Assembly: GCA_040755315.1 (NCBI GenBank)
Contig: JBFMBF010000001.1
Span: forward strand, 29,109-93,108
From: Candidatus Hadarchaeota archaeon
GTDB lineage: Archaea; Hadarchaeota; Hadarchaeia; Hadarchaeales; Hadarchaeaceae
Reading direction: 5' to 3'
DNA: 64,000 bases
In this document: piece after piece, positions 16,672 through 58,947 of the stretch
How the letters are laid out: each line of letters begins with the position of its first letter
How positions within the stretch are numbered: position 1 is the stretch's first letter
The notes under the pieces: generated by a model
Database searches by the model: none
What the model saw: the letters and a program-made list of their open reading frames with translations, nothing else
Told to the model about the DNA's origin: nothing
Program-made: the position numbers and the translations under genes

Positions 16672-16748
16672 GCCGCCGTGGCTCAGCCTGGTAGAGCGAC
16701 GGTTTCGTAAACCGTAAGTCGAGGGTTCAAACCCCTCCGGCGGCTCCA
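16672..16748 (+). tRNA. tRNA-Thr (anticodon CGU), CCA encoded
   Basis: Manual cloverleaf: acceptor GCCGCCG/CGGCGGC, D-arm GCTC/GAGC, anticodon stem ACGGT/ACCGT with loop TTCGTAA, T-arm GAGGG-TTCAAAC-CCCTC, discriminator T, and CCA. Confidence 0.85.
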
Positions 16749-17450: not shown

Positions 17451-18773
17451 GTGACGAAAATGATAAGAAGCAAAGCAGTAGTAATAGGACTTTTTGCGGC
17501 ATCGTTGCTGGCCGTTTTGTCGCTTGCTATTTTCAGTGGTGGAGTGTTGAAACAAGGAAGTCCAGGGGGAAAACCCACACCATCTGGGCCGGAATCTGGA
17601 ACAACTGGGACAAATATCCATTTTGGAGTGGTAGGCGCTTTACCCAGTTTTCCAAATGAGCTGAGAGAAGCGGGGGTTGGGATCGTGAGGGTGGGGATAG
17701 ATTGGAGCGTGACAGAACCGACAAATGATTCGTACAACTGGACACAGCTGGACACCATGGTCCAAAGTGCGGAAAACGCCGGCGTTGAACTTCTTGGTTA
17801 TTTTATTTACGCGCCCCAGTGGGCCAAGAGAAATCCAAGTTCTAACCAAGATATCTGTGAAATTAACAACATGAATGATTTCAGGCAATTTGCCAAAGAT
17901 GTCGCGAAAAGATATGATGGCAGCAATCCGGCGCTTGGAGAAATGAAATACATAGAAATTCTCAACGAAGTTACCTTCCCCAATTTCTATGAGCAAAATC
18001 CGATTGATACATATTCAGATTGGTTGATAAACGGTTATGGAGGAGTTAAGGAAGGAAACCCAAACGCGGTTGTTTTAATCGGGGCATTTTTCGACCCTCT
18101 CGATCATGCGGGGGGCGTCTTGGAAAATGAAAGAGTGTTCATAGACAAAATGTTGCAAGATTACAGCCAATATTACGATATAGTCAACTTCCACAGCTAC
18201 TCCAATTACGACAATGGGATTACAGAAACGGCGCAATACGTAAAAGAGCGCATGGCGCAGTTTGGAGTTAACAAACCGATGTGGATCACAGAAACCAATA
18301 CCATGTTTTCTTATGCAGACCCAGATTGGCAAAATAAGAATGCAAGGGATGTGGTAAAAATGTACGCCCGGGCCTTCGGAGAAAATGTTGAAAAAGTGTT
18401 TTGGTTTACTTTTGTGGGGCTTCCATTGCCCGCAGAGGACTCCGTAAACGGCATCGTGCCAAAAAATGTCACTTTAGGTTGGAATGTGAAGGGATCTGCA
18501 GTATACCACCCCAGACAAGCATATTACACTTATAAGTTAATGACTTCCAAATTGCGCGGATTTGTCTCTTCACAAAAAATTTCGGATAAACAGTACAAAT
18601 TCACTTTCACGGACAACAACCCAGTATATGTCTTGTGGGGCAGTGGGGGTTCATTACCATCGGAAATAACAGGGACAGTTAAAGTCACGGATTATCTGGG
18701 CAACGAACAGACCATAGGCGCTTCTAGTGTCGTCTTGAGTGACAATCCTGTTTTCATTACACAGCTCACGTGA
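17451..18773 (+). CDS. Secreted / membrane-anchored glycoside hydrolase (TIM-barrel clan GH-A, GH5/GH39-like)
   Basis: N-terminal TM/signal anchor and an ILNEV motif for the acid/base Glu. The WITETN motif would hold the nucleophile Glu. AT-rich (about 47% GC) compared with its neighbours. Confidence 0.55.
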   Translation: MTKMIRSKAVVIGLFAASLLAVLSLAIFSGGVLKQGSPGGKPTPSGPESGTTGTNIHFGVVGALPSFPNELREAGVGIVRVGIDWSVTEPTNDSYNWTQLDTMVQSAENAGVELLGYFIYAPQWAKRNPSSNQDICEINNMNDFRQFAKDVAKRYDGSNPALGEMKYIEILNEVTFPNFYEQNPIDTYSDWLINGYGGVKEGNPNAVVLIGAFFDPLDHAGGVLENERVFIDKMLQDYSQYYDIVNFHSYSNYDNGITETAQYVKERMAQFGVNKPMWITETNTMFSYADPDWQNKNARDVVKMYARAFGENVEKVFWFTFVGLPLPAEDSVNGIVPKNVTLGWNVKGSAVYHPRQAYYTYKLMTSKLRGFVSSQKISDKQYKFTFTDNNPVYVLWGSGGSLPSEITGTVKVTDYLGNEQTIGASSVVLSDNPVFITQLT

Positions 18774-22489: not shown

Positions 22490-23650
22490 TTAAAGGTGGG
22501 CTCTTAAAAATTTAACCAGGCGACGGCGGAGCTGAAATGCTTCAACTCTCAATGCCCCGAGCCGCAAACCTGAGATTATTACTCCTGTGGCTGAGACGAC
22601 AGCCAATATTTCCATGGCCTTGGGTCCGGTAAATGTCGGGGGCGCGTCCTGTAGGTATCCCCTGACGTCGCGTCCGTAGACGCTGGGAGTGAAGTTGTCG
22701 TAACTAAGCAGCAGGTTCGGCGCCCAGTCAGCACTGAAAACATAAGCAATCCAGCTCTCGCCCCTTGCCTCCAAAGCTGCCAGGGAATATTCATCTGTCT
22801 CCGCCCATAGCGTGATGACATTTTCCACCTTGGGGCTCCAATCGTAGTAGGATGTTCTCTTGTAAGACACATTATTGTCCGAGATCGGGTACTTGGCGGC
22901 CCAGTAGAGGTCCCTCGCGTAGTGCAGCCCGCTCACCAGAATCATCTTGTAAGGGTCGTTTTTCCTTATCCTGCCGATGATGTTTTCCTCGGCGAAAGCC
23001 TTCCATCTAAGCCACCCCACTTCACAGTTGTCGTTTTTCGGCCACTTTACTTCGTTGAATATCTCGTAGGCCACAACCGTGTTTTCGTACCTGTAACGCA
23101 GGCTCGCCTCCTCCCAAAAGCTGAACAGCCACTCATTCTTGTAAAGAAAAATGTTCTCAGTCTGTTCGCCGGTGGGCTCCGTGTGGTAAGTCTCCTCAGG
23201 AGGGTAACCAACTGAGTGGAAGTCAAGTACAATCATAAGGCCATTCTTCCTCGCCTCCACGACCGCCCTGTCAACATCACCCCACGGGGGAACATTTTCC
23301 CAGAGGTAGTAAATTACTGGGTAGACTGGAACCCGGATGGTGTTTGCACCCCAGGCCTTGATCTCAGCCATGTATTTTGAGAAATCCACTCCCTTGTTGT
23401 CAAGCATGATGGGCGGCATTATCCCCACTCCTTCGAACTTGATTTTCGTGTCACTTAGGTAGAAACCGTTGTCCCTTGCCACGACGTAGGGCTGCACCTC
23501 CCCAGAGGTAGCTATCGTGAATGGCATTCTTTGCCAGGCGAACCTGATCGCGAAGTACGACGCTGAGAAAAGCAGGAGTATCAAGAAGAACACAAAGAGG
23601 CCGCTCCAAATGCAAACAGATGTACGCCGCTTCATCGTCTCATCACCCAA
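22490..23650 (-). CDS. Membrane-anchored glycoside hydrolase family 5-like (cellulase-like)
   Basis: N-terminal TM anchor, GANTIRVPV, and an EIFNEV acid/base motif with a later conserved Glu. Confidence 0.55.
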   Translation of the reverse strand: MGDETMKRRTSVCIWSGLFVFFLILLLFSASYFAIRFAWQRMPFTIATSGEVQPYVVARDNGFYLSDTKIKFEGVGIMPPIMLDNKGVDFSKYMAEIKAWGANTIRVPVYPVIYYLWENVPPWGDVDRAVVEARKNGLMIVLDFHSVGYPPEETYHTEPTGEQTENIFLYKNEWLFSFWEEASLRYRYENTVVAYEIFNEVKWPKNDNCEVGWLRWKAFAEENIIGRIRKNDPYKMILVSGLHYARDLYWAAKYPISDNNVSYKRTSYYDWSPKVENVITLWAETDEYSLAALEARGESWIAYVFSADWAPNLLLSYDNFTPSVYGRDVRGYLQDAPPTFTGPKAMEILAVVSATGVIISGLRLGALRVEAFQLRRRLVKFLRAHL

Positions 23651-38474: not shown

Positions 38475-38552
38475 GGGCCCGTGGCCTAGTATGGATAAGG
38501 CGGCAGCCTTCTAAGCTGCAAATCGTGGGTTCAAATCCCACCGGGCCCGCCA
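38475..38552 (+). tRNA. tRNA-Arg (anticodon UCU), CCA encoded
   Basis: Manual cloverleaf: acceptor GGGCCCG/CGGGCCC, D-arm GCCT/AGGC, anticodon stem GCAGC/GCTGC with loop CTTCTAA, T-arm GTGGG-TTCAAAT-CCCAC, discriminator G, and CCA. Confidence 0.85.
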
Positions 38553-38621
38553 TTAAAAATCTTGCACGTTTTTCCGGCTTACCTGCTATTTTAAAATACA
38601 GCGGATATTGTAGGGGGACGA

Positions 38622-39506
38622 ATGGCCAGAATAAGCATAATTGGCAGCGGCGTCGTCGGGACGATAGTCGGCAAGGGATTCAGGAGCTTGGGCAACGACG
38701 TGGTTTTTTACGACATCAGCGAGAAAAAAGCGAGGCAGCTGAGGAACCAGGGTCTTGACGCCACAACCGACATCGCCTTGGCGGCCAGGAAGACGGACGT
38801 TTCTTTCATATCGGTGCCGACTCCTTCAAAGGCCGGCAAAATAAACCTGGACTGCATAAAGTCCGCGGTGGAGAGCCTCGGCAGGTGCATCGGCGAGAAG
38901 AAAAGGTATCACCTGGTGGTAGTCAAAAGCACGGTGGTTCCGACCACGACGGAAAAGGTCGTCATCCCGCTGCTCCAGAAAAGCTCTGGCAAAAGGGTCG
39001 GGAGAGAAATGGGCGTCTGCATGAACCCCGAGTTCCTGACGGAAATCCAGAAGTCATGGACAAAAGAAAAGGATTTCACGCGGGACTTCTTCAGCGAGGA
39101 GAGAATCGTCATCGGAAGTTTCGACAAGAAGTCCGGCGACGCGCTTCAGAAGCTTTACAGGCCCCTCAAGGCCCCGGTCTTCCGGACAAACCTCAGCACG
39201 GCCGAGACCGTCAAGTACGCGAGCAACTGCGCCTTGGCGTCCAGAATTTCCTACTGGAACGAGATTTTCTTCATATGCCAGAAAATAGGCGTCGACTCTA
39301 ATTTCGTGGCCCAGGTCGTGGGCATGGACAGCAGGATAGGGAGGTATGGAACTATCCACGGGAAGGCATTCGGAGGCAAGTGTCTGCCCAAAGACCTCGA
39401 TGCATTCATAGCTTTTTCCAGAAGCGTTAGCCACGAGCCGAAGCTCCTCAAGGCCGTCGCCGACATAAACAAAAGGATCGGAAAGGAGCGCGGGGTGAGA
39501 GAGTGA
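38622..39506 (+). CDS. UDP-glucose/GDP-mannose dehydrogenase family protein, N-terminal and central domains only
   Basis: N-terminal IIGSGVVG Rossmann motif and a catalytic-Cys motif GGKCLPKD. It ends at 294 aa, lacking the usual C-terminal UDP-binding domain. The stop overlaps the start of the next gene. Confidence 0.6.
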   Translation: MARISIIGSGVVGTIVGKGFRSLGNDVVFYDISEKKARQLRNQGLDATTDIALAARKTDVSFISVPTPSKAGKINLDCIKSAVESLGRCIGEKKRYHLVVVKSTVVPTTTEKVVIPLLQKSSGKRVGREMGVCMNPEFLTEIQKSWTKEKDFTRDFFSEERIVIGSFDKKSGDALQKLYRPLKAPVFRTNLSTAETVKYASNCALASRISYWNEIFFICQKIGVDSNFVAQVVGMDSRIGRYGTIHGKAFGGKCLPKDLDAFIAFSRSVSHEPKLLKAVADINKRIGKERGVRE

Positions 39507-43788: not shown

Positions 43789-45084
43789 ATGAGCTTGAAA
43801 ATAGCTGTTTTCGGTTTGTGGCATCTGGGGTGTGTCAGCGCAGCAGGCCTGGCGGAGATGGGTCACGATGTCGTGGGCACCGACTTCGACAGGAAGGTTG
43901 TTGAAGGCCTGTCAAAAGGGCGCCCGCCAATCTACGAGCCAAGGCTGGAGGAGCTGATAAAGAAAAATGCCAAAAGAAAAAAACTGTCTTTTGTTTTTGA
44001 CAAAAAAACCGCCCTGAAGGGCGCGGAGTTCATATTCATAACATTCGACACGAAAGTTGACGAGAAAGACAGGGCTGACCTCGGGGAGACAAAGCGCGCC
44101 GCGGCGGAGATTGCCAAGCACGTCAGAGATGGTTCCGTCATCGTCGTCAGCAGTCAAGTGCCCGTGGGAACGTGCGCCGAAATAAAAAATGTCGTTTCCA
44201 GAGGCGCGGAGGTGGACATTTGTCACGTTCCGGAGAACCTGAGGCTCGGCACCGCTTTGGATTCATTCTTGAAGCCGGACAGGGTGGTCATAGGCGCGAA
44301 TGAAGTTTCCACCATGAGGAAAGTCAAGAAGCTTTTCCAGCCGCTCGGGTGCGAATTGATCACGATGGGGGTGGAAAGCGCCGAGATGGCAAAGCACGCG
44401 CTGAACGCTTACATGGCGGCCTGCATCAGCTTCATAAACGAGATTTCAGACCTGTGCGAGCTCAGCGGGGCCTCGGCCTCGGACGTTGTCAAGGCTCTGA
44501 AGACAGACAGGAGGGTCAGCCCCCACGCCCCCATAAATCCCGGCCTGGGCTTTTCGGGGGGGACGTTGGCCAGGGACGTCCAGGTTCTGAGGTCTTACGG
44601 CGACAAGGTGGGATATGACACGAGAATGCTGGACGCCGTCTTCAACATCAACCAAGCCAGGAAGCAGCTTGTCCTGAAAAAACTTGAGAAATCTTTTGGC
44701 AGCGTCAGGCGGCTTCAAGTCGGGATACTCGGCCTGACTTACAAGCCCGGCACAGACACCCTCAGGCGGTCTCTTTCGCTGGAGGTGGCGAAGGGGCTGG
44801 CTGCTCGCGGCGCCAGGGTGAGGGCGTATGACCCGAAGATTTCAAAGCCGATCCCGGGACTGCCAAGGCTCGAAGTTTGCAATGACGTGGAAGATGTGGC
44901 CAGAGGGAGCGATGTGCTGGTGCTGCTCACAGAGTGGCCAGAGTTCAGGGCCCTGCCGCTGAAGAGGATAAAATCACTGATGAAAAAGCCGGTTTTTTTC
45001 GACGCGAAGAACTTCCTCTCTCCACAGGAGTTTAAGAAACTGGGCTTCAGATACATTGGAGTGGGTGGTGGATTTGAAGCTTAA
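43789..45084 (+). CDS. Nucleotide-sugar dehydrogenase (UDP-glucose 6-dehydrogenase / UDP-ManNAc dehydrogenase family), full length
   Basis: N-terminal VFGLWHLG Rossmann motif, central dimerisation domain, and the C-terminal UDP-binding domain; about 431 aa. Confidence 0.8.
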   Translation: MSLKIAVFGLWHLGCVSAAGLAEMGHDVVGTDFDRKVVEGLSKGRPPIYEPRLEELIKKNAKRKKLSFVFDKKTALKGAEFIFITFDTKVDEKDRADLGETKRAAAEIAKHVRDGSVIVVSSQVPVGTCAEIKNVVSRGAEVDICHVPENLRLGTALDSFLKPDRVVIGANEVSTMRKVKKLFQPLGCELITMGVESAEMAKHALNAYMAACISFINEISDLCELSGASASDVVKALKTDRRVSPHAPINPGLGFSGGTLARDVQVLRSYGDKVGYDTRMLDAVFNINQARKQLVLKKLEKSFGSVRRLQVGILGLTYKPGTDTLRRSLSLEVAKGLAARGARVRAYDPKISKPIPGLPRLEVCNDVEDVARGSDVLVLLTEWPEFRALPLKRIKSLMKKPVFFDAKNFLSPQEFKKLGFRYIGVGGGFEA

Positions 45085-48763: not shown

Positions 48764-48915
48764 AGATACGACTCCCGTTATTAAAGACTAGATTATCAAA
48801 TACTCCGTCAGTCCTCCGCTTCCAGTGGGTGATTTTTCCGGCTCGGCTCTTGACCCGGCCAAATGAGAAAACTGGCAGCATAACTTTTCAAGGTGAGAGG
48901 CTGAAGTGCAGAATC

Positions 48916-49719
48916 TTGAGACCATTAGCTGTTGCTTTAGTCCTTTTGTTTGTATCAAATTATCTCGTTCCGCTTTCCTCGGCTCTTGAAGAAAATTCAA
49001 GTGCAACGTTTTCATTTACCATCCCGCAAGATGAAAACGCTCAGCCTGAAAATTTCGCGCAGGGTTCGGACGCAACTTCTCCGGACAACGGCGAGAACTC
49101 GGACCACCCGGAACCGGAGAATCTGGTCTGGTACTACGCCGAGAACCTGTGGGCCCCGGCAGACGTGCACAGCCCGTTCGCAGACAGGGTTTTCTTCATA
49201 AACGCGCCCTATGACCCGACTGAGGGCCTTCCCGAGAATATGCTGGGATTGCCAGATGGTGCATACTGCGACCTCAACGGCGGCCAAACCACCGTGGGCT
49301 TCCCGAACGAGTCCAGGAACGCTTTTCTAGATTACGGAGTGCCCATCCCTCCCGGCACTGACCTGATCATCTTCGACCGCGGGTACTTCGACTTCCCGGC
49401 GCTCGTGACTTTCGGTTTCGGTGTCCCGTTGGACGCGGACAACGATGGGATGGCGGACAATCCGTCCGGCGTTGCCAGCTACATTGGTGGTGCGGTTTCT
49501 CCACTGCAGTACGGCTCAGTTGAACCCCTGAACCTGGCGTTCTTTGATATAGGTGACTACGGTCAATTGAATCCAATACCAAATGACCTGTTCGTATCTG
49601 TCGACGATGCGGGCGACTACGACATAGACTCGTTCGAGATAGGGTTTTCAGTTTTAGATACAGCGCCGCCCACTTCCATGGTTCTGCCGTTCGACGGCAA
49701 GGCCTTCGTGGGGATCTAG
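48916..49719 (+). CDS. Secreted protein; stand-alone diverged duplicate of the N-terminal domain of the giant protein at 50587..58242
   Basis: About 90% aa identity to residues 1 to about 265 of the giant protein, including the signal peptide (MRPLAVALVLLFVS...SSA). It diverges after ...MVLPFDG and stops seven codons later. About 30 nt of upstream leader are also duplicated. Probable TTG start. Confidence 0.55.
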   Translation: MRPLAVALVLLFVSNYLVPLSSALEENSSATFSFTIPQDENAQPENFAQGSDATSPDNGENSDHPEPENLVWYYAENLWAPADVHSPFADRVFFINAPYDPTEGLPENMLGLPDGAYCDLNGGQTTVGFPNESRNAFLDYGVPIPPGTDLIIFDRGYFDFPALVTFGFGVPLDADNDGMADNPSGVASYIGGAVSPLQYGSVEPLNLAFFDIGDYGQLNPIPNDLFVSVDDAGDYDIDSFEIGFSVLDTAPPTSMVLPFDGKAFVGI

Positions 49720-49852: not shown

Positions 49853-50485
49853 TTATCCCACCCGATTAACACCGGAGATTGTTAGTCCGGAAGGCGGGGT
49901 GGAAAATCCATCTCCATAACTGCTTGCTGTTAGTTCTAACACATCTCCTCTGTTCCACAGCATTGCGGCGGGTTTATGACCGGTTCCGTAACTGTTGGTT
50001 TCTTCGTTGTCATTGTCCACCCACAAATAAAGATACGCGTTTTCCCCATGCTCAAGTTTTCCAACTACAGTAACTGGTACGTGCAAACTCCAGCGAACAA
50101 ATGCGTTTTGGGCCGCAGAAGCCGCCCAGTAGCCATTCTCCTCCACATACCCTCGTGCGTAATTCTCCTGCCCCTTCACATCAGCGACAAATGTGCCCCA
50201 TCCGCGCGTGGTGTTGCTTATTTTTACGATTAGACCATGGTCTTTGTCTCCAACATATCTAAGAGATTTTACAGTTGTATAAAATCGTATTACCATATTT
50301 TCATTGCTAAATATTTCGCTAGAAGTTGTGTCACTGTCAAATACCTCTGCATTGAATTCCCCCACAACAGGATCTACTGTAGGAATAAATGGCGATTGTG
50401 TGACAATCAAAATCACAGTTGTCGTGATAGCAATAACTGTAACAATGCTTACAATTTTCCATTTTTTAGAACGAATGGCTTTCAT
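49853..50485 (-). CDS. Hypothetical membrane-anchored protein (N-terminal TM plus an extracytoplasmic domain of about 180 aa)
   Basis: AT-rich (about 40% GC). Start at the internal MKAIRSKKWKIVSIV; the longer ORF to 50686 is the antisense of the duplicated leader. No family recognised. Confidence 0.4.
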   Translation of the reverse strand: MKAIRSKKWKIVSIVTVIAITTTVILIVTQSPFIPTVDPVVGEFNAEVFDSDTTSSEIFSNENMVIRFYTTVKSLRYVGDKDHGLIVKISNTTRGWGTFVADVKGQENYARGYVEENGYWAASAAQNAFVRWSLHVPVTVVGKLEHGENAYLYLWVDNDNEETNSYGTGHKPAAMLWNRGDVLELTASSYGDGFSTPPSGLTISGVNRVG

Positions 50486-50586
50486 CTGTTGAACACCTTT
50501 TGAGCAAACCTCAGTTAATAATTCACGCCAAGTCTTAAATAATAAGTGGCCGAAGTTTCCAAGGTGAGAGGCTGAAATGCGGAATC

Positions 50587-53500
50587 TTGAGGCCGTTAGC
50601 TGTAGCTCTGGTCCTTTTGTTCGTGTCAACTTATCTCGCCCCGCTTTCCTCGGCTCTTGAAGAAAATTCAAGTGCAACGTTCTCATTTACCATCCCGCAA
50701 GATGAAAACACTCAGGCCGAAAACTCCTCGCAGGGTCCGGACGCAACCTCTCCGGACAACGGCGAGAACTTGGACAACTCGGAACCGGAGAACCTCGTCT
50801 GGTACTACGCCGAAAACCTGTGGGCCCCGGCAGAGGTGCACAGCCCGTTCGCCAACAGGGTTTTCTTCATAAACGCGCCCTATGACCCGACCGAAGGCCT
50901 GCCGGAGAACATGTTGGGGTTGCCGGATGGAGTATACTGCGACCTCAACGGCGGCCAGGCGACCGTGGGATTCCCAAACGAGGCCAGGAACGCTTTTCTA
51001 GACTACGGGGTGCCCATCCCTCCCGGCACTGACCTGATCATCTTTGACCGTGGAAGCCTTGACCTGCCGAACCTCGTGACTTTTGGTTTCGGTGCCCCTG
51101 TGGACGCGGACAACGACGGGATGGCGGATAATCCATCTGGCGTTGCCAGCTATATTGGAGGAGCAGTTTCTCCGCTGCCGTATGGCTCCATCGAACTCCT
51201 GAACCTGGCGTTTTTTGACATCGGCGATTACGGTCAATTGAACCCAATACCAAACAACTTGTTTGTGTCTGTAGACGATGCAGGCGACTACGACGTGGAC
51301 TCGTTTGAGATAGGGTTTTCGGTTCTAGATACAGCGCCGCCCACTTCCATGGTTCTGCCGTTCGATGGCGAGGAATACTGGAAGGAGCTTGAGCCGGGAC
51401 AGAGTTTTTCCGTCAGCGCGGTGGCGGCCGACAACGTTGGAGTGAGAAATGTCCAGCTCTGGTATAGGTATTCGCTCGACAACTGGACGGACAACGTGGC
51501 ATGGAAGAAGCGCGGCTGGCAGCTGTATGGGGCGGACGTGAGCGGCGCCGATGGATGGAGCTGGAACTTCACACCCGAGAAGTACGGGTACTACGAGTTC
51601 GTCAGCGTGGCGACTGATTCGAGTGGGAACCGGGAGGACAAGGAAAACGTGTTTAGAGATAACTTGGCGGAGGCGAGATGCAGAGTGGCGAAGGATCTGG
51701 TGAGAGTGGCGGTGATCTTCGCGGAACCAAACGATGTTGATAATTTGGGCCAGCGGAATTGGGTTGATCCACAAACTGGACAAACAGAAAACTTACCAAC
51801 TCGTGAATTTTTCCGAAGGACTTTTGGAATACTGAAGAGTTATTGCGATGAGGTTTCATCTGGGGCGTTGGCAGTTAGGTTAGAAGACGAAGATATACAC
51901 GATGCAAATGGTATTTGGTATACGCTTGGCATGCCGCAAAACAACTATCTTTATTTTTACAGACCAGCGGGCAGCTGGACATATTCAAATCAATTTCTCA
52001 TAGATGCGATAAACGCGGCGGATGTTGATATCGTGTATGGAGACTATAAAGCAGTTATTGTCGTTGGAGCACTTGGTACTTTTCCAGGGCTCTTTGCTTA
52101 CTATGGCGGGGCAGATTATAAACTGGAAGAAGTCAAGACTAACACAGATGAAATAGCGTACAACCCAATATTTTTTGACGAGTTAGATGTAGATCCAAAT
52201 GACCTTACGCTAGCTCACGAAGTTGGGCATGCGCTTGGAAAAATACTTGCTAATGAAAAGCTTCCAGAGCTTTACAATACAACTGGATCATGGGGAGATG
52301 TAGATGGCTGGGATCCAATGGGGAATGAGCGTTGGCCGGTCCACTATTCTTCTTGGAGTAAGGAGCGCCTGAAGTGGCTCAACTATCAAAAAGGCGACCT
52401 TACTTCACCTCTAGGCGGCGTTCTCGCTGGCCATATAGATGCACTACCAACTCTTGCTTATGGTGACAACGTATATTTCCTCAAGGTCGATCGGCAGGAC
52501 CAGTGGTGGTGGGGCTGGGGAAACGAGGTCTGGTACGCGTTGGAGTTTAGAACAAACGATCCAAGTGTTAGTAAGGGAGACACAGATGTGCGGGGCACCG
52601 GTTTGGTCATTTACCAAGTAGACTATAGTTGGGAACTGTGGGGGCTAAAATCATATACACGCGTAAATGTTGTAGAAAACGATCAAGACCCGGCCAGCCC
52701 AACTTGGCTTTTACCTTGGGAAATTTACCACTCGGGAATAGGTAATGGAGCGATATTTGCTGCGGGAGAAATTTTTTACCACACGGACGAGGCGTTTCCT
52801 TGGGGCAAAGTTCCCAGCATGAATTTTGTGGTGCAGTATCCATACCCGAAAAGCAGCGCCACAGCCGTGATGTTCCAGATTCCATACGAACTCCGCGGAG
52901 CACTGGCGTCGGCTTCTGTGCAACCGTCGCCGGACTTGGATTTGCATGCTTACGCTGCAGATGGCAGACATGTGGGGGTTAATTATGAAACCGGCGAATA
53001 TGAGATTGAAATAACTGGGGCAACTTCGTCAGGCGACCTATTCCAGGGGAGCGAATGGATTTCAGTTCCTTCAGGCATCGATGCTTTTTTTGTCGTTAGC
53101 AGCCGCGATGTGAAGGAGGCTATACAAGCAGGCGTTGAGCTTGAGAACGAAGCCGGCCTCTATGCCATCAGAGTGGCCCATACAGATGAAAACAGAAATC
53201 TGTATTTCTCACATGCAATTGGACGAGAAATAATGCCTGGTGAAGAAATTGCCCACACGACCACCGCAAGAGTTAAAATAGAAAATATTGCCACCAAGCC
53301 TTTCTCACCGAACCGCGATGGCATAAAAGACACGGCCACTGTTTCATATTTACTTATCGACAACTTCTGGCAAAAGGCCAAGGTTTTAATTGACATTTAC
53401 AATGACGACAACAAGCTGGTTAAAAGGTTGTTTTCGGATTGGGAGAACGCTGGCCGCGATGGTCTGCTTTATTTGTATACATGGGACGGCCGAGATGAAG

Positions 53501-56500
53501 ATGGAGCCATTGCCCCAGACGGAGTTTACACTGTTCGAGTAGACGCGGCGGATGCAATGGGAAACCGTGACGAGGCAAGTGCACAAGTGATTGTTGACAC
53601 CACTTATCCGGTGTCGCTCGTCGAGTCCCCACGGCTCTGGCAAAATACAGAAAACTTTACGGTAACCGCGACAACATCGCATGATTTGAGCGGGATTGAA
53701 AACGTGGAGTTATGGTACAGGTACAGCCCTGACAATCTCTCGTGGTCTGACTGGCAACTTTACGGCTTCAACAACGAGGAACCATATTCCTGGAATTTCA
53801 TGGCAGAAAACGACGGATTTTATGACTTTTACAGCAGGGCAACCGATTGGGCAGGCAATGCCGAGCCACGCCCGAGGAAAGGGAATTGGTCGATGTATGG
53901 GGCCAATCCAGGTCAGACGTTTTACTCCAACTCGTCCGTGCCCCTGCGTCCCGCTTTAGCTTGGAGCAGAAATTTCGAGTCTGAGATATGTGCCCCCGTG
54001 ATTGCCGACAACATGGTTTACGTCGTCAAAGAGGACGGCATAGCTTCCCTCCAAGCTTCGACCGGCAGCACGGTATGGGAGCACTCAGGGTTGGGGTACG
54101 GCGGACCGGAAGTAACATACGGCCCGGCGGTAGTCGGCGGAAACGCGTACGCGTTCTTCGGAGTTGATGGCGAAGGATATCTGTACAGCCTGGACGCAAA
54201 CACGGGGGAAATTCTATGGCGCGCGGCCCCGCCTTACGGCGCCGACTACACGATGAAGGTGCTGGTGGCGGACGGCGTCGTCTACCGGGTTTTCGTGGAC
54301 GACTACGGCAACCCCGCGCAGGTCGTCGCCCTCAACGCCCAGAATGGCAGCTACATTTGGGATACCGGCGACATGGGTGGCAACTTGTACGCCGTGGAGG
54401 ACGGACGCGTTTATCTTAGCCGCGGGGCAAGCGGCGCTGACTGGGTGGATGCCGCCACTGGGGAGTTCGGGGGGCATTACGTGTACCTCGTCGACGGGGA
54501 GATTGTTTCATGCCCATACGACGGCTCAACCCGTCTCGATTTTCTTTATGAAGAAGAGATCGAGGTCGAATACGGCAGGCGTTACGAGTTCTATTTCTGG
54601 TGCCCGAAACATGGCCATGTTGTTGTCCGTGAAGGGCAGGAGATGGAAAAAACGTTTGCCGGGCAGCGCTTCCCTGTCGAGCCGAGGGCCCTGGCGGTGG
54701 CCGATGGCATCGCATACATCTACGGAGAGGACGGAAGCCTGCGTGCCGTTGACACCGCAACGATGCAGACACGCTGGAGCGCCGAGCTTCTCCAGACACC
54801 CAGGCTGCCGGGGTACACCCGCGTCCGGCACGATGGGGCGCTGGCCGTGGGGGACGGCAGGGCTTACCTCGACTTGCGGGAGGTGTATTCTGCATACGAA
54901 GGGGGGCGCTGGATAACCACTTCGTACCACACCATTTACACGGTGGATTCTTCCACCGGAGAACTCCTCTGGGGTTATGATTTCGGGTGGTGGCCGCTGG
55001 ACGGAGGCTGGAGTTTGCACCACCCATACTTGTCTTTAGCCGCTGTGGACGGGAAACTCGTAGTCGGCTCGCCAGACGGGTTGTTCATCCTGAACGGCGG
55101 CAATGACTCAATTGTCTGGAAGAACGAAGATGTGGGCTTTGGAAAGGTCGCTCTGGCGGGAGGAGGGATTTACTACGCGGCCGGAAATAGCCTGTTTTAT
55201 TTCGAGCCGTCAAAGGTCCAAGTCGGCGTGGACACCGCTCCGCCAGATTCGCTCGTTACCCCGATTGAACCCCACTGGCGAACGCTTGGGCCGCTTGAAG
55301 TTAGCGCCACAGCGTCCGACGCGCTGAGTGGAGCCGAAAACGTAGAGCTCTGGTACCGGCACTCGACCGACAACGTGACATGGAGCGGCTGGAAGCCGTA
55401 CGGAAACATGTCGGCCGGAGAAGCGCTGCACAAGGTGAAACTCAGGATAGAGTTCCCGGAAAAAGTCAAGTGGGTGAACGGCGGGGTCATGGTCGGCAAT
55501 CACGTCTTCCAGCAGACTTACGAGGAGAACTCAGTCTTCGAGCTGGAGACCCCCGCGGCGTTCAGAAGAGGCGACACCGTTCAGTGGTACATAGATATGT
55601 GTGTGGAGGGGGCAGGCGGAGAGGTGGAATACTGGACGGGTTACCAAACCCTCGCAATCGAGGACAAGGATGTTTTAATCAATATGGTCATTCATGATTT
55701 GACGGACGAGCGGGCTTTCTCGTTCATGATTTCCGAATACCTGACGCCCCAGACGTTCCAAATCACGTTCACCCCTCCTGCGGGAGACGGCTTGTATGAT
55801 TTTTACTCCATCGCCATTGACCGGGCCGGAAACCGCGAGCAACCCCCCGAAACGGCCGATACAAGAGCTGGCGTCGATACGACTCCTCCCGAATCCCACG
55901 CTAACCCAATAACACCATACTGGCGCAACGCAAACGCTGTGCCGTTTGAGGTGACCGCAACGGCGTTCGATGGGTTAAGTGGCGTAAAGCGGGTGGAGCT
56001 GTGGTACCGATATTCTCCCGACAACCGGAGTTGGGGCAACTGGGCGATGTTCGGCACAGATAATGGGTCGCCCTGGCAATGGCAATTTGATGCGCCCGAA
56101 GGCGACGGATTTTACGAGTTCTGCAGCGTTGCCACAGATGAGCTTGGGAATGCTGAGTTCCTTGTGCCAGTGTTCGTGGACGAATTCGCCGGCACTTTGG
56201 ATTCAACGACTTGGGCGGTCGGGAAGGTGAAAGTCAAGAACGACAGCGCGGCAGTGTCGGGCGGGCACCTGCAACTGGCCTCAAGGGCGGCCACGGCGGG
56301 CACCTATGGCGCGATTTACGCGGTTTCTAATTCTCCATTCGACTTCAGCCGGGGCTTGATATTTGACGTTTCAATGTCTGTGCCAACGGACAACGCGCCA
56401 GCCGACTTCAGGAGCGAGTTTTACCTGGCGCCAGACTACACGACAACGGCAAACCCGCACGACCAGCCGAACTGGATCCGGGTCTCCGCGAGCGTTGACC

Positions 56501-58242
56501 GGGACGGGGTGCGCTGGATGCTCCAGCGACGTCGCGGCGGTGGCGGAGTCGGCACACTCGGCGAGAACGAAGAAATCCTCGACAACGTGGAACCCGCCGA
56601 AGAGTCCCACATGTACACCTCCGGCCCCACCACCAAGCTAAGCGGCACATGGAAGATTTTCATTGACAGCGAAAGCATCACGGTCTGGCTGGACAGCGAG
56701 CTGGTGGAGCCCGCCAGGTCGCACGAGCTGAACTTCACAAGCGCCTACCTTTACCTGGTCGAACGCACGAAGGTCGCGCCCGTCTACACGGTAAGCTTTG
56801 ACCACGTTATTGTGCAGGAGTTTTCGGCAGACGCCAGCGTCGGCATCGACACCGTCCCGCCCAAATCGTCCGTTGACCGTATTTCACCCTACTGGCAGGC
56901 CTCGGCGCCGTTCACGATAACAGCCACGGCTTCCGACGGGATGGCCGCGCCCCCCAGGGAAGATTTTGAGGGCAAAACAATTTCGAGCCTTAGAGGGCAG
57001 GGCTGGAAAATCTACCTAGAGCCCGGCTCTTCCCCTGCTCCATCGTCGGAAGTGGTCGATGGAGTGCTCAGGATGACCAACACCTCTGGGAACTGGTACG
57101 GCCTGTATTACCCGGCTGAGTGGACCGACTACACGCTGTCCTTCAGGGCGAGATACTCAGCATACGCAGCTGTAACGCTGTTCCACATGGGAGACCCGGT
57201 CGAGGCGACATCGTTAGAGTTGATTCCGAGCTATGCTTTCAGGTTCGGGGAGACCTACTCCCTGCTCGGCTGGTACGGCCCGGGCTACGGCGGCTGGTGG
57301 CAGAGCGGCCCCGGGGTGGCGCCGGACATCTGGCATGATTTCGAGATAAGGGTCGACGGGACAAGCTTTGAGGTAAGTGTCGACGGGGCGCAGGGGCTCG
57401 CCTTTACCAGCGACAGGTGGTTGAGCGGGGGAATCGGGTTCATCGTGGCGGGGGGAACGCTGGAGATTGACGATGTGGTTGTGGCCGGAGTTGATTACGT
57501 GCCCACCAGCGGCGTCTCGGACGTGAAACTGTACTACAGAAGCTCGTTCGACGGACTGAACTGGGGTGGGTGGAAGCTGTTTGGAGAAGACGGCACGGCG
57601 CCGTACGAGTGGTCGTTCGACATCCCAGCTGGCTACGGATTCTATGAGTTCTACTCTGTCGCCACCGATGTCGCGGGAAACGTCGAGGCGCCTCCGGGTT
57701 GGGCCGACGCCAGCTGCGCCACCCTGATACAGGCGACAGTCGACATAGACCCCGACACCCTGAACCTGAAGAGCAAGGGCAAGTGGATAACGGCCTACAT
57801 TGAGCTGCCGGATAGCCTTGATGTGGCAAACATTGATGTGAGCACTGTGGCCATCGAGGGCGACACCTTCCTTGAAGGGGCATTGTTCGCCGAGTCCCGG
57901 CCAACGAAAATCGGCGACCATGATAGCGACGGAATCCCGGACTTGATGGTCAAGTTCAACAGGTCGGCCGTTCAGGGGCTGGTGAGTGTTGGCGACAACG
58001 TTGAGCTGGTTGTGGTTGGGAAGTGGAACGAGATTCCATTCCGCGGGAGCGACAGCATCCGGGTAATCGACCCCGGCCAGAGCTGCGATGAAAGTCATGA
58101 GGACAAGCCAAACGCTCCGCCAAGCCATTCAGTAAGTCATCCGGGACAAGGCCAAGGCGATCAAGGACATGGTAACTCCGGCGGGAATCAAGGACAGGGC
58201 AACAGAAACAGTGAAAAAACCGGGAAGGGTAAGAGGAATTGA
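50587..58242 (+). CDS. Giant secreted multidomain surface protein (2551 aa)
   Basis: The signal peptide is followed by an N-terminal domain with no recognised family, then an HExxH (LAHEVGHALG) zincin-like, M6/InhA-like peptidase region. An FlgD-Ig-like domain follows (FSPNRDGIKDTATVSY...WDGRDEDG). There are at least five copies of a roughly 110-aa module (DTxPPxS...VELWYRYSPDNxSW..W..YG...P..W.F....GDGFYEFYSVATD..GN.E.PP). A PQQ-type beta-propeller segment (LYSLDANTGEILW, VVALNAQNGSYIWD) and two concanavalin/LamG-like (DUF1080-like) jelly-roll regions follow. The tail is Gly/Gln/His-rich with no C-terminal TM anchor. Confidence 0.8.
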   Translation: MRPLAVALVLLFVSTYLAPLSSALEENSSATFSFTIPQDENTQAENSSQGPDATSPDNGENLDNSEPENLVWYYAENLWAPAEVHSPFANRVFFINAPYDPTEGLPENMLGLPDGVYCDLNGGQATVGFPNEARNAFLDYGVPIPPGTDLIIFDRGSLDLPNLVTFGFGAPVDADNDGMADNPSGVASYIGGAVSPLPYGSIELLNLAFFDIGDYGQLNPIPNNLFVSVDDAGDYDVDSFEIGFSVLDTAPPTSMVLPFDGEEYWKELEPGQSFSVSAVAADNVGVRNVQLWYRYSLDNWTDNVAWKKRGWQLYGADVSGADGWSWNFTPEKYGYYEFVSVATDSSGNREDKENVFRDNLAEARCRVAKDLVRVAVIFAEPNDVDNLGQRNWVDPQTGQTENLPTREFFRRTFGILKSYCDEVSSGALAVRLEDEDIHDANGIWYTLGMPQNNYLYFYRPAGSWTYSNQFLIDAINAADVDIVYGDYKAVIVVGALGTFPGLFAYYGGADYKLEEVKTNTDEIAYNPIFFDELDVDPNDLTLAHEVGHALGKILANEKLPELYNTTGSWGDVDGWDPMGNERWPVHYSSWSKERLKWLNYQKGDLTSPLGGVLAGHIDALPTLAYGDNVYFLKVDRQDQWWWGWGNEVWYALEFRTNDPSVSKGDTDVRGTGLVIYQVDYSWELWGLKSYTRVNVVENDQDPASPTWLLPWEIYHSGIGNGAIFAAGEIFYHTDEAFPWGKVPSMNFVVQYPYPKSSATAVMFQIPYELRGALASASVQPSPDLDLHAYAADGRHVGVNYETGEYEIEITGATSSGDLFQGSEWISVPSGIDAFFVVSSRDVKEAIQAGVELENEAGLYAIRVAHTDENRNLYFSHAIGREIMPGEEIAHTTTARVKIENIATKPFSPNRDGIKDTATVSYLLIDNFWQKAKVLIDIYNDDNKLVKRLFSDWENAGRDGLLYLYTWDGRDEDGAIAPDGVYTVRVDAADAMGNRDEASAQVIVDTTYPVSLVESPRLWQNTENFTVTATTSHDLSGIENVELWYRYSPDNLSWSDWQLYGFNNEEPYSWNFMAENDGFYDFYSRATDWAGNAEPRPRKGNWSMYGANPGQTFYSNSSVPLRPALAWSRNFESEICAPVIADNMVYVVKEDGIASLQASTGSTVWEHSGLGYGGPEVTYGPAVVGGNAYAFFGVDGEGYLYSLDANTGEILWRAAPPYGADYTMKVLVADGVVYRVFVDDYGNPAQVVALNAQNGSYIWDTGDMGGNLYAVEDGRVYLSRGASGADWVDAATGEFGGHYVYLVDGEIVSCPYDGSTRLDFLYEEEIEVEYGRRYEFYFWCPKHGHVVVREGQEMEKTFAGQRFPVEPRALAVADGIAYIYGEDGSLRAVDTATMQTRWSAELLQTPRLPGYTRVRHDGALAVGDGRAYLDLREVYSAYEGGRWITTSYHTIYTVDSSTGELLWGYDFGWWPLDGGWSLHHPYLSLAAVDGKLVVGSPDGLFILNGGNDSIVWKNEDVGFGKVALAGGGIYYAAGNSLFYFEPSKVQVGVDTAPPDSLVTPIEPHWRTLGPLEVSATASDALSGAENVELWYRHSTDNVTWSGWKPYGNMSAGEALHKVKLRIEFPEKVKWVNGGVMVGNHVFQQTYEENSVFELETPAAFRRGDTVQWYIDMCVEGAGGEVEYWTGYQTLAIEDKDVLINMVIHDLTDERAFSFMISEYLTPQTFQITFTPPAGDGLYDFYSIAIDRAGNREQPPETADTRAGVDTTPPESHANPITPYWRNANAVPFEVTATAFDGLSGVKRVELWYRYSPDNRSWGNWAMFGTDNGSPWQWQFDAPEGDGFYEFCSVATDELGNAEFLVPVFVDEFAGTLDSTTWAVGKVKVKNDSAAVSGGHLQLASRAATAGTYGAIYAVSNSPFDFSRGLIFDVSMSVPTDNAPADFRSEFYLAPDYTTTANPHDQPNWIRVSASVDRDGVRWMLQRRRGGGGVGTLGENEEILDNVEPAEESHMYTSGPTTKLSGTWKIFIDSESITVWLDSELVEPARSHELNFTSAYLYLVERTKVAPVYTVSFDHVIVQEFSADASVGIDTVPPKSSVDRISPYWQASAPFTITATASDGMAAPPREDFEGKTISSLRGQGWKIYLEPGSSPAPSSEVVDGVLRMTNTSGNWYGLYYPAEWTDYTLSFRARYSAYAAVTLFHMGDPVEATSLELIPSYAFRFGETYSLLGWYGPGYGGWWQSGPGVAPDIWHDFEIRVDGTSFEVSVDGAQGLAFTSDRWLSGGIGFIVAGGTLEIDDVVVAGVDYVPTSGVSDVKLYYRSSFDGLNWGGWKLFGEDGTAPYEWSFDIPAGYGFYEFYSVATDVAGNVEAPPGWADASCATLIQATVDIDPDTLNLKSKGKWITAYIELPDSLDVANIDVSTVAIEGDTFLEGALFAESRPTKIGDHDSDGIPDLMVKFNRSAVQGLVSVGDNVELVVVGKWNEIPFRGSDSIRVIDPGQSCDESHEDKPNAPPSHSVSHPGQGQGDQGHGNSGGNQGQGNRNSEKTGKGKRN

Positions 58243-58947
58243 ATGCAGGCCGTAATTCTTGCCGGAGGTATAGGTACTCGGCTCAAGCCGCTGACTGAAA
58301 AAGTACCTAAAACCATGATTCCCGTCTACGGCAGGCCTTTCCTCGAGTACCAGCTCAGCCTTCTCAAAAGGAGTGGGATTTCCAACGTCGTGCTCTGCAT
58401 CGGCTACTTGGGCAGCAAGATCAAGAAGCACTTCGGCAACGGCGAAAAGTTCGGGCTGAAAATCAGCTACAGCGAGGAGGGGAACAAGCTTCTGGGGACG
58501 GCCGGGGCGCTGAAGAAGGCCGAGAGATTGCTTGAAGACGAGTTTTTCGTCACCTACGGGGACGCCTACCTCATGCTGGACTACAGGGGCGTCATGCAAC
58601 GCTTCAAAAAGAGCAAAAAGCTCGGGCTGATGGTCGTCTACAAGAATTTTGACAAGTACGACCGGAGCAACGTCGTGGTTGGAGGAGGCCTGGTGAAGGT
58701 CTACAGCAAGAAGAGAAAGGCCCCTGGGATGGTTTACATAGATTTCGGGGTCTCCGCCTTCAGGAAGGAGGCGCTGGCCTTGGTGCCGAAGAATAAGGTG
58801 GTGGACCTGGAGGACTTGAACCAGAAGCTCATTGAAAAGGGGGAGCTGCTTGCGTTTGAGACCGACCAGAGGTTCTACGAGGTCGGCGGGCCAGAGAGTT
58901 TGAAAGAGTTCGAAGCGCTGATGTCGTCAGGAAAAATCAAAATTTGA
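58243..58947 (+). CDS. hddC: Sugar-phosphate nucleotidyltransferase, D-glycero-D-manno-heptose 1-phosphate guanylyltransferase (HddC)-like
   Basis: MQAVILAGGIGTRLKPLT NTP-transferase signature; short (234 aa) like HddC. The start immediately follows the giant gene's stop. Confidence 0.6.
   Translation: MQAVILAGGIGTRLKPLTEKVPKTMIPVYGRPFLEYQLSLLKRSGISNVVLCIGYLGSKIKKHFGNGEKFGLKISYSEEGNKLLGTAGALKKAERLLEDEFFVTYGDAYLMLDYRGVMQRFKKSKKLGLMVVYKNFDKYDRSNVVVGGGLVKVYSKKRKAPGMVYIDFGVSAFRKEALALVPKNKVVDLEDLNQKLIEKGELLAFETDQRFYEVGGPESLKEFEALMSSGKIKI

What the first reader, a model, noticed from the sequence alone, without database searches (positions are those of the whole stretch)
50587..58242. 2551-aa secreted multidomain protein embedded in a glycan-biosynthesis locus
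A single uninterrupted ORF encodes the domain series listed in the feature entry for 50587..58242. I could not place the N-terminal domain or the roughly 110-aa WYRYS...GDGFYEFYSVATD...GN module in any named family. The gene is surrounded by nucleotide-sugar enzymes and glycosyltransferases. That placement fits a heavily glycosylated surface or secreted protein, possibly adhesive or degradative. Archaeal giant proteins of this composition are poorly characterised.
Basis: seen in the sequence. Interest (0 to 1): 0.7.

Follow-up and report, generated by a model that had tools for sequence, protein, structure and literature searches.

The report
Giant secreted archaeal modular metalloprotease
The 2551-residue open reading frame is real and encodes a secreted protein of an uncultured Hadarchaeota archaeon, built around a divergent zinc protease of the immune-inhibitor-A (M6) type and decorated with Ig-like and lectin-like domains; it is an unusual mosaic of mostly known domain types, not a new kind of system.

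Summary
The ORF 50587..58242 (+, TTG start, 2551 aa) is confirmed. It has one N-terminal signal-peptide-like segment and no C-terminal anchor. The source is a Candidatus Hadarchaeota MAG.

The 'WYRYS' module is not unplaceable. It is a divergent bacterial Ig-like domain (Pfam Big_7, NCBIfam OmpL47-type) in five copies. Two copies are split by nested domains.

The core (aa 362-895) is a divergent M6/InhA-like metzincin: HEVGH at 544-548, Glu561, Met578. A conserved 'PDLDLHAY' beta domain follows it.

The N-terminal domain (aa 69-247) has no Pfam or NCBIfam family. Its confident model has a CBM32/galactose-binding-like fold. Its few relatives are mostly small bacterial PEP-CTERM proteins.

Other parts are FlgD_ig, a PQQ/BamB-like propeller, two ConA-like domains and a widespread unnamed C-terminal domain.

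The same domain set recurs in other giant metagenomic ORFs, one of at least 4711 aa. One of them is colinear with this protein over long stretches, which argues against an assembly chimera.

Flanking genes are nucleotide-sugar enzymes; glycosyltransferases lie more than 38 kb away. This context is absent in most relatives, and N-glycosylation sequons are not enriched.

Most likely function: an extracellular, glycan-targeted protease. Modest interest.

The parts
50587..50655 (+). Signal-peptide-like N-terminus (aa 1-23, MRPLAVALVLLFVSTYLAPLSSA)
   Evidence: It is the only segment with Kyte-Doolittle mean above 1.6. It is conserved in the upstream paralogue and in fragment P0029. Cleavage after SSA is inferred.
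50656..50790 (+). Acidic, low-complexity linker rich in N, S, E, D and Q (aa 24-68)
   Evidence: Read directly from the translation.
50791..51327 (+). N-terminal domain (aa 69-247): unnamed family with a CBM32 / galactose-binding-like beta-sandwich fold and a conserved DxDxDG-type acidic loop
51328..51642 (+). Big_7-type Ig-like module 1 (aa 248-352). This is the subtype with the LDNWTDNVAWKKRGW insertion that precedes the protease in relatives.
   Evidence: Module HMM 118 bits. The same subtype lies directly upstream of the protease in P0003-P0006, P0020, P0021 and P0025.
51670..52911 (+). Divergent M6/InhA-like metzincin catalytic region plus following beta-rich region (aa 362-775). Key residues: HEVGH 544-548, Gly551, a 7-residue insertion, Glu561 in LPELY, Met578.
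52912..53271 (+). Conserved 'PDLDLHAY...HVGxNYxTGEYEIxIPGAxxSGD' beta domain (aa 776-895), PPC-like
   Evidence: It is the most conserved block of A1. The homologous stretch in P0001 carries a weak PF04151 PPC hit. It is widespread in archaeal and CPR genomes.
53272..53595 (+). FlgD_ig-type Ig-like domain (aa 896-1003)
   Evidence: Pfam PF13860: 37.4 bits against a cutoff of 27.
53596..53874 (+). Big_7 / OmpL47-type module 2 (aa 1004-1096)
   Evidence: Module HMM 143 bits. NF047446: 42.7 bits against a cutoff of 40.
53878..55221 (+). PQQ_2 / BamB-like beta-propeller (aa 1098-1545) with an internal insert of about 80 aa carrying CPYDG...CPKHGH
   Evidence: Pfam PF13360: 61.1 bits against a cutoff of 27.6. 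The insert has no family hit.
55228..55878 (+). Big_7 module 3 (aa 1548-1764), split at HMM position about 64 by an unassigned insert of about 110 aa (aa 1613-1723, window 55423-55755)
   Evidence: The module HMM matches in two pieces, positions 1-64 and 63-95. P0005 carries a GH16-like insert at the same loop.
55876..56166 (+). Big_7 module 4 (aa 1764-1860)
   Evidence: Module HMM 150 bits. Pfam Big_7: 24.8 bits against a cutoff of 24.1 for this module alone.
56176..56841 (+). Unassigned domain of about 220 aa (aa 1864-2085), probably a concanavalin-like beta-sandwich. It is shared with P0001 (two copies), L060, L061 and L069.
   Evidence: No Pfam or PDB sequence hit. hhalign to the GH16-annotated insert of P0005 gives probability 66%, E 5.8e-5, over the first 70 residues only. 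It recurs in other giants.
56848..57711 (+). Big_7 module 5 (aa 2088-2375), split by a nested 3keto-disac_hyd/DUF1080 concanavalin-like domain (aa 2123-2304, window 56953-57498)
   Evidence: The module HMM matches in two pieces. Pfam PF06439: 29.7 bits against a cutoff of 26.8.
57739..58086 (+). Unnamed C-terminal beta domain (aa 2385-2500; IDPDTLNLKSKGKWITAYIELP...GDHDSDGIPDLMVKF)
   Evidence: No Pfam or PDB hit. At least 601 relatives exist, including another protein of the same MAG. It is C-terminal in P0001, P0004, L059 and L069, and in a neighbouring Amidase_3 protein in L003.
58087..58242 (+). Low-complexity tail rich in G, Q, N and H (aa 2501-2551) plus the stop codon. There is no hydrophobic anchor.
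   Evidence: P0001 has a longer version of the same tail.
48916..49719 (+). Upstream truncated paralogue (267 aa, NCBI MEW6221775.1): signal peptide, linker, N-terminal domain and the first 15 residues of module 1, then a stop
   Evidence: A gapless duplication of about 810 nt at about 90% identity, offset 1671 nt. dN/dS 0.10, dS 0.49. Identified through.
58243..58947 (+). Sugar-phosphate nucleotidyltransferase gene whose ATG directly abuts the giant's TGA (probably co-transcribed)
   Evidence: Sequence ...aat tga atg cag.... Pfam NTP_transferase.

Best explanation
The gene encodes a Sec-exported modular zinc metallopeptidase of about 279 kDa with an acidic pI (4.4). Its catalytic unit (aa 362-895) is a divergent member of the immune-inhibitor-A (MEROPS M6) branch of the metzincins. 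The proposed chemistry is as follows. His544 and His548 of HEVGH, with Glu561, bind zinc. Glu561 stands in for the usual Asp and is displaced by a 7-residue insertion. Glu545 acts as the general base, and Met578 forms the Met-turn. The rest of the protein consists of non-catalytic beta-rich modules. These are five Big_7 Ig-like spacers, one FlgD_ig domain, a BamB/PQQ-like propeller and three lectin-like beta-sandwiches (a CBM32-like N-terminal domain and two concanavalin-like domains). A widespread unnamed C-terminal domain, shared with other secreted enzymes of these archaea, completes the chain. I infer that the lectin-like domains and the propeller hold the protease on glycan-bearing polymers such as glycoproteins, cell envelopes or EPS-embedded protein. 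On that view the enzyme serves extracellular proteolysis, for peptide scavenging or cell-surface remodelling. Shown: the ORF, the domain identities, conservation of the catalytic motif, the fold of the N-terminal domain, and the recurrence of the architecture. Inferred: secretion, catalytic activity, glycan binding, and the physiological role.
Confidence: 0.6

Rival explanations
1. The protein is a non-catalytic surface adhesin or envelope protein. On this view the Ig-like modules, propeller and lectin-like domains are the functional parts, and the protease-like domain is a degenerate binding module.
For: Most of the chain (about 80%) is Ig-like, propeller or lectin-like. The best PDB sequence relatives of the module are adhesin domains: SiiE BIg and the GspB Siglec domain. 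The zinc motif is non-canonical, with a 7-residue insertion and Asp replaced by Glu.
Against: H544, E545, H548 and M578 are invariant across the family, and the D/E position is retained in 10 of 11 members. A decayed domain would not be expected to keep these. There is no cell-anchoring signal such as a TM segment, PGF-CTERM or PEP-CTERM.
Confidence: 0.2
2. The protein is a heavily N-glycosylated surface (S-layer-like) protein, and the flanking nucleotide-sugar genes make its glycan.
For: The gene sits among nucleotide-sugar enzymes. Its stop codon abuts the start of a sugar-phosphate nucleotidyltransferase. The relative P0001 is followed by PGM/PMM.
Against: Sequons are not enriched: 19 against 15.2 +/- 3.6. 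There is no glycosyltransferase, flippase or oligosaccharyltransferase nearby, and the nearest GTs are more than 38 kb away. The relatives in L002-L004, L059, L060 and L069 lie in unrelated contexts. No anchor was found.
Confidence: 0.1
3. The long ORF is an assembly chimera that joins homologous genes from two related populations.
For: A 1.9-kb block (aa 362-1003, window 51670-53595) has GC3 of 0.43-0.47. The rest of the gene has 0.61-0.78 and host genes have 0.63-0.80. The independently assembled 2059-bp contig that matches the 5' end at 100% stops at aa 333, just before this switch.
Against: The reading frame and all domain boundaries are intact across both switches. The pairing of the module-1 subtype with the protease is conserved in at least 8 relatives. 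The run protease, PPC-like, FlgD_ig, Big_7 is one colinear HSP with L069, and the C-terminal half is colinear with L069 and P0001. Repeats within the gene are only 60-70% identical in DNA, too low to mislead an assembler. Other low-GC patches occur elsewhere on the contig. Natural recombination or domain swapping explains the composition equally well.
Confidence: 0.07

Closest known systems
Immune inhibitor A / MEROPS family M6 (Pfam PF05547, TIGR03296; structure 4yu5 of B. anthracis InhA2); also Vibrio PrtV-type M6 proteases
   Different: The giant scores far below the family cutoffs. Its motif carries a 7-residue insertion and Glu instead of Asp. A 'PDLDLHAY' beta domain follows the catalytic region. 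The family is found in archaea and CPR bacteria rather than Firmicutes or Vibrio. The protein is 3-4 times longer than InhA.
Glycoprotein-targeting bacterial metallopeptidases that carry CBM32 modules (e.g. C. perfringens ZmpB M60 with CBM32, 7jfs; Akkermansia OgpA, 6z2o)
   Different: The peptidase families differ (M60, M11-like). There is no sequence relationship to the N-terminal domain. Glycan binding is untested here.
Giant bacterial Ig-repeat adhesins (SiiE, Big_7/Big_13-rich proteins, OmpL47-type domain proteins)
   Same: The WYRYS module belongs to the same Ig-like superfamily. The relative P0002 has at least 33 tandem copies.
   Different: Here there are only five copies, interspersed with enzymatic and lectin-like domains, and two of them host nested domains.
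Small bacterial PEP-CTERM (exosortase-sorted) proteins carrying the same N-terminal domain (e.g. NER98879.1 of Symploca sp.)
   Same: They share a homologous globular domain (E down to 8e-20, 32-47% identity) behind a signal peptide.
   Different: Those proteins are about 215 aa and end in a PEP-CTERM anchor. The archaeal protein has no such anchor and fuses the domain to a 2300-aa chain. The archaeal stand-alone paralogue (48916-49719) also lacks PEP-CTERM.

Membership tests
MEROPS M6 / Pfam Peptidase_M6 (PF05547) / TIGR03296 | HExxH zinc-binding and catalytic motif | tested here: met
   HEVGH at aa 544-548. H, E and H are invariant in alignment A1.
MEROPS M6 / Pfam Peptidase_M6 (PF05547) / TIGR03296 | Extended motif HExxHxxGxxD, with Asp as third zinc ligand (motif as described for Asp-ligand zincins in PMC3890501) | tested here: not met
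   Gly551 is present, but 7 residues (KILANEK) are inserted and the aligned residue is Glu561 (LPELY). Four of 11 relatives keep the canonical GLPDLY. Inserts and Asp-to-Glu changes have precedent in another zincin family (PMC3890501).
MEROPS M6 / Pfam Peptidase_M6 (PF05547) / TIGR03296 | Conserved Met-turn methionine downstream of the motif | tested here: met
   Met578 (WDPMG) is invariant in A1.
MEROPS M6 / Pfam Peptidase_M6 (PF05547) / TIGR03296 | Score above the curated family threshold | tested here: not met
   There is no PF05547 hit for the giant's segment. TIGR03296 gives 36.8 bits against a cutoff of 110.8, though E is 3.8e-9. Two of 11 relatives reach PF05547 at E < 0.01.
MEROPS M6 / Pfam Peptidase_M6 (PF05547) / TIGR03296 | InhA-like catalytic fold | tested here: inconclusive
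MEROPS M6 / Pfam Peptidase_M6 (PF05547) / TIGR03296 | Metal-dependent endopeptidase activity | not testable with these tools
   This needs a biochemical assay.
Pfam Big_7 (PF17957) / NCBIfam OmpL47-type domain (NF047446), for the WYRYS module | Score above the curated threshold | tested here: met
   Big_7: 50.4 bits against 24.1 for the whole protein, 24.8 for module 4 alone, and 13 of 25 modules at E < 0.01. NF047446: 42.7 bits against 40.
Pfam Big_7 (PF17957) / NCBIfam OmpL47-type domain (NF047446), for the WYRYS module | Ig-like beta-sandwich fold | tested here: inconclusive
   Only sequence-profile matches to solved Ig-like domains are available: SiiE E 9e-4, GspB Siglec domain E 0.015. 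No structure was predicted for the module.
CBM32 / F5/8 type C (galactose-binding domain-like), for the N-terminal domain | Beta-sandwich fold of the galactose-binding-like superfamily | tested here: met
CBM32 / F5/8 type C (galactose-binding domain-like), for the N-terminal domain | Sequence membership (Pfam F5_F8_type_C or related) | tested here: not met
   No Pfam or NCBIfam hit for the globular domain in any of 21 family members.
CBM32 / F5/8 type C (galactose-binding domain-like), for the N-terminal domain | Carbohydrate binding | not testable with these tools
   This needs glycan arrays or ITC.
PEP-CTERM / exosortase substrates | C-terminal PEP motif followed by a TM helix and a basic tail | tested here: not met
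   The motif is present in 6-7 of 21 relatives of the N-terminal domain but absent from the giant and from its upstream paralogue.
Archaeal C-terminally anchored surface proteins (PGF-CTERM / C-terminal TM) | Hydrophobic C-terminal segment | tested here: not met
   No 19-residue window beyond aa 24 exceeds a Kyte-Doolittle mean of 1.6. The tail is rich in G, Q, N and H.
PQQ_2 / BamB-like beta-propeller (PF13360) | Score above the gathering threshold | tested here: met
   61.1 bits against 27.6, two stretches, aa 1124-1292 and beyond.
3keto-disac_hyd / DUF1080 (PF06439) | Score above the gathering threshold | tested here: met
   29.7 bits against 26.8, aa 2126-2297, covering model positions 5-184 of 187.

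The most novel reading that the evidence does not exclude
The giant is one representative of an undescribed class of modular extracellular proteases, spread across archaea and CPR bacteria. In this reading, interchangeable protease heads are mounted on a common scaffold of Big_7, ConA-like and C-terminal domains, and lectin-like domains aim them at the glycosylated cell envelopes of other microbes. The protein would then be an antagonistic or necromass-harvesting weapon of Hadarchaeota. The selectively maintained stand-alone copy of the CBM32-like head (48916-49719) would act as a soluble co-receptor, competitor or immunity factor.
Probability: 0.12. Interest if true: 0.6.

Novelty: new variant of a known kind. 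Interest (0 to 1): 0.33.

Why it matters
Hadarchaeota are uncultured subsurface archaea. Their known genomic picture centres on CO/H2 metabolism (my own knowledge, not checked here). A large secreted protease with lectin-like targeting domains would indicate that they also attack extracellular polymers.

The analysis also brings out four sequence families that are recognisable but unnamed:
- a CBM32-fold domain shared with bacterial PEP-CTERM proteins;
- a divergent M6-like protease clade with an interrupted zinc motif, present in many archaeal and CPR genomes;
- a ConA-like domain;
- a C-terminal domain with at least 601 relatives.

All four could be turned into family models.

The nested insertion of whole domains into the same loop of an Ig-like module, seen here and in P0005, is a tidy example of domain grafting.

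None of this overturns current understanding. Large mosaic secreted proteins built from such parts are common in metagenomes.

Tried and rejected
- **Self-BLASTP for repeats** returned nothing useful. I replaced it with a motif search and an HMM.
- **Whole-protein phmmer against PDB sequences** gave no hit.
- **Single-protein scans of genome contigs and metagenome contigs** found no close relative. The alignment-based scans worked.
- **Exact look-ups** of the giant, its upstream paralogue and the downstream gene in the contig index found nothing. The source record's own gene calls and any independent full-length assembly therefore could not be inspected.
- **PDB profile searches** for the ConA-like domain and the C-terminal domain gave nothing significant.
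- **hhalign of the ConA-like domain** against the nested 3keto-disac_hyd insert showed no relationship. Against the GH16-like insert of P0005 it gave only a weak N-terminal match.
- **AF2 of the protease region** with an 11-sequence alignment gave a poor model.
- **Bacterial promoter and terminator scans** were at chance level and are not appropriate for an archaeon.
- **Literature searches** found no description of this protein family in Hadarchaeota.
- **Rejected: sequon enrichment** as evidence of heavy glycosylation.
- **Rejected: conserved linkage to glycan genes**.
- **Rejected: my first reading of a Cys-rich start** for the minus-strand ORF between the duplicates. That reading was in the wrong frame; one search shows the real product.
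Full report
**Observation**

The window carries an uninterrupted ORF at 50587..58242 on the + strand, with a TTG start and 2551 codons. An in-frame stop lies at 50536, and no alternative start codon lies between it and 50587. NCBI's pipeline chose the equivalent TTG for a 91%-identical paralogue 1.7 kb upstream.

The first 23 residues (MRPLAVALVLLFVSTYLAPLSSA) form the only hydrophobic segment of the whole protein. The mature chain would be about 279 kDa with pI 4.4.

Six neighbouring proteins match exactly proteins of an NCBI Candidatus Hadarchaeota MAG on a 100,902-bp contig. The archaeal assignment therefore holds.

**The repeated 'WYRYS' module**

A motif search finds five copies. An HMM built from them recovers all five at 94-150 bits. 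It also shows that two of them are split:
- Module 3 is interrupted after HMM position 64 by about 110 unassigned residues.
- Module 5 is interrupted near positions 30-57 by a complete 3keto-disac_hyd/DUF1080 domain (PF06439, 29.7 bits against a cutoff of 26.8).

The relative P0005 carries a GH16-annotated insert at the same loop as module 3.

The module is not unplaceable. The protein scores 50.4 bits on Pfam Big_7 (cutoff 24.1) and 42.7 bits on NCBIfam's OmpL47-type domain (cutoff 40). Of 25 modules from this protein and its relatives, 13 hit Big_7 individually. A profile of the modules finds the Ig-like domains of the adhesins SiiE and GspB in the PDB. The module is therefore a divergent subfamily of a well-known bacterial Ig-like domain.

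**The core**

NCBIfam's M6 metalloprotease domain model matches aa 522-604 at E 3.8e-9, well below its full-length cutoff. Searching with aa 362-895 alone retrieved relatives that JGI names 'M6 family metalloprotease-like', two of which carry Pfam Peptidase_M6.

In an 11-sequence alignment:
- The HExxH histidines and glutamate (H544, E545, H548) and a downstream methionine (M578) are invariant.
- Four members show the canonical AHExGHxLGLPDLY motif.
- Seven members, including this one, have 7-8 extra residues between the Gly and the LPD.
- This protein has Glu561 in place of the Asp.

MEROPS places M6 among the Met-zincins. Inserts in the motif and Asp-to-Glu replacement have precedent in another zincin family (PMC3890501).

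The catalytic region is followed by a very conserved beta domain (PDLDLHAY...HVGxNYxTGEYEIxIPGA). The homologous stretch in P0001 has a weak PPC hit.

An alignment-based scan shows that this protease and domain pair is not rare. It found 54 loci in GTDB genomes and 168 in JGI metagenomes. The genomes include Hadarchaeota, Micrarchaeota, Iainarchaeota, Methanomassiliicoccales, Anaerolineae and many Patescibacteria.

**The N-terminal domain (aa 69-247)**

It has no Pfam or NCBIfam family. An exhaustive HMMER search of 1.84 billion representatives found only 27 relatives. Most are proteins of about 215 residues, consisting of a signal peptide, this domain and a PEP-CTERM anchor. Two are embedded in other giant proteins.

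Its fold suggests glycan binding, which is an inference.

**Other parts**

- FlgD_ig (37.4 bits).
- A PQQ_2/BamB-like propeller (61.1 bits) with an unassigned insert.
- A 220-residue domain with no family and only a weak hhalign link to a GH16-like domain.
- A C-terminal domain with no Pfam or PDB match but at least 601 relatives. One relative is in the same MAG. The domain also occurs at the C-terminus of other secreted enzymes, for example an Amidase_3 protein in L003.
- A tail rich in G, Q, N and H, with no anchor.

**Is the ORF an artefact?**

GC3 drops to 0.43-0.47 for aa 362-1003 (window 51670-53595). Elsewhere in the gene it is 0.61-0.78, and in host genes 0.63-0.80. A chimera therefore had to be considered.

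Evidence against a chimera:
- The module-1 subtype is found directly upstream of the protease in at least eight relatives.
- A 2346-2362-aa ORF in an unrelated JGI metagenome (L069) is colinear with the giant through protease, PPC-like, FlgD_ig and Big_7 in a single 705-residue HSP. It is colinear again through Big_7, ConA-like, Big_7, C-terminal domain and tail at 59-62% identity.
- P0001 shares the same C-terminal half.
- DNA repeats inside the gene are only 60-70% identical.
- Short contigs, apparently mis-binned into a Zixiibacteriota MAG, reproduce the arrangement 'short paralogue, spacer, giant 5' end' at 100% identity up to aa 333.

A natural mosaic produced by domain shuffling or recombination is the better reading. 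Only read mapping can settle it.

Even larger relatives exist: L060 at least 4711 aa with 12 modules, and L061 at least 3322 aa. None of the 137 fetched loci carries the N-terminal domain.

**Context**

The immediate neighbours are nucleotide-sugar enzymes. The giant's TGA abuts the ATG of a nucleotidyltransferase. Three points weaken any functional link:
- The window's glycosyltransferases lie more than 38 kb upstream.
- Sequons are not enriched: 19 against 15.2 +/- 3.6.
- The relatives inspected sit next to ribosomal, aminoacyl-tRNA synthetase, molybdopterin and other genes. Only P0001 is followed by a sugar gene.

The glycan link is therefore weak and probably incidental.

**An unexpected extra**

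Window 48893-49706 is a gapless copy, about 90% identical, of 50563-51375. It encodes a 267-residue protein (MEW6221775.1). This protein is the signal peptide, linker and N-terminal domain, truncated 15 residues into module 1. dN/dS between the copies is 0.10 and dS is 0.49, so both copies are maintained by selection. The domain thus also works as a stand-alone secreted protein, as it does in the bacterial relatives.

**Verdict**

This is a real gene. It is best explained as a secreted modular M6-like metalloprotease with lectin-like targeting domains. It is a new architectural variant built mostly of known domain types plus a few unnamed but recognisable ones. Interest is modest.

Noticed in passing
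window 48893-49706 vs 50563-51375 (ORF 48916-49719): A gapless segmental duplication of about 810 nt at about 90% identity covers the RBS-like region, start codon, signal peptide, linker, N-terminal domain and first 15 residues of module 1. The upstream copy is a 267-aa stand-alone protein (MEW6221775.1). dN/dS is 0.10 and dS is 0.49, so both copies are under purifying selection.
   Followed up: yes
window 49853-50485 (- strand), between the two duplicate copies: This ORF has no Pfam hit. Its likely start is MKAIRSKKWKIVSIVTVIAITTTVILIV, an N-terminal TM or signal anchor, giving about 210 aa. The longer ORF call (to 50686) would overlap the giant's start.
   Followed up: partly
window 51670-53595 (giant aa 362-1003): The protease, PPC-like and FlgD_ig block has GC3 of 0.43-0.47. 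The rest of the gene has 0.61-0.78 and neighbouring host genes have 0.63-0.80. This is compositional evidence for a mosaic origin, either lateral or recombinational acquisition of the cassette.
   Followed up: partly
window 58240-58245: The giant's TGA stop is immediately followed by the ATG of a sugar-phosphate nucleotidyltransferase, with no intergenic base. This suggests co-transcription.
   Followed up: partly
window 50577-50660: An out-of-frame ATG lies 5 nt after the GAGAGG Shine-Dalgarno-like element and opens a 27-codon ORF that overlaps the giant's start. The paralogue has GTG at the same place and the same stop. Its significance is unknown.
   Followed up: no
L001 (P0001, 3015 aa), about aa 530-545: The closest relative of the giant's C-terminal half carries a different HExxH head (AVIHEYGHFVM) on the same scaffold of Big_7, ConA-like and C-terminal domains with a GQGN-rich tail. 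It also lacks the M6-like catalytic region, retaining only the short PDLDLH stretch. This suggests interchangeable catalytic heads.
   Followed up: partly
window 57739-58086; P0067; L003 13888-15846: The unnamed C-terminal domain has at least 601 relatives in the protein collection, none with a Pfam family. One is a 207-aa protein of the same MAG. Another is an Amidase_3 protein next to P0004. A few co-occur with dockerin (PF00404), PKD or LamG domains.
   Followed up: partly
NCBI MEW5994899.1, MEW5994901.1 and MEW5995889.1 (P0055, P0028, P0029): Short contigs (2059 bp and 1058 bp) binned into a Candidatus Zixiibacteriota MAG encode fragments identical or near-identical to this Hadarchaeota locus. 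They are probably mis-binned.
   Followed up: partly
window 38475-39506 and 43789-45084: tRNA-Arg(TCT) at 38475-38552 is directly followed by a UDP-glucose/GDP-mannose dehydrogenase-like ORF of 294 aa that lacks the C-terminal UDP-binding domain. A complete 431-aa paralogue lies 4 kb downstream. The nucleotide-sugar cluster begins at this tRNA.
   Followed up: no
window 15014-15907 and 16672-16748: An IS240-type DDE transposase ORF lies close to tRNA-Thr(CGT).
   Followed up: no
window 17451-18773 and 22490-23650: Two GH5 cellulase-like ORFs occur in the same window. They hint at other extracellular polymer-degrading capacity in this genome.
   Followed up: no
L059 and L069 (same 48-kb contig, Ga0315282_10001276): One metagenomic contig carries three paralogous members of the protease family (about 2350, 1079 and 839 aa). 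The family therefore expands within genomes.
   Followed up: partly
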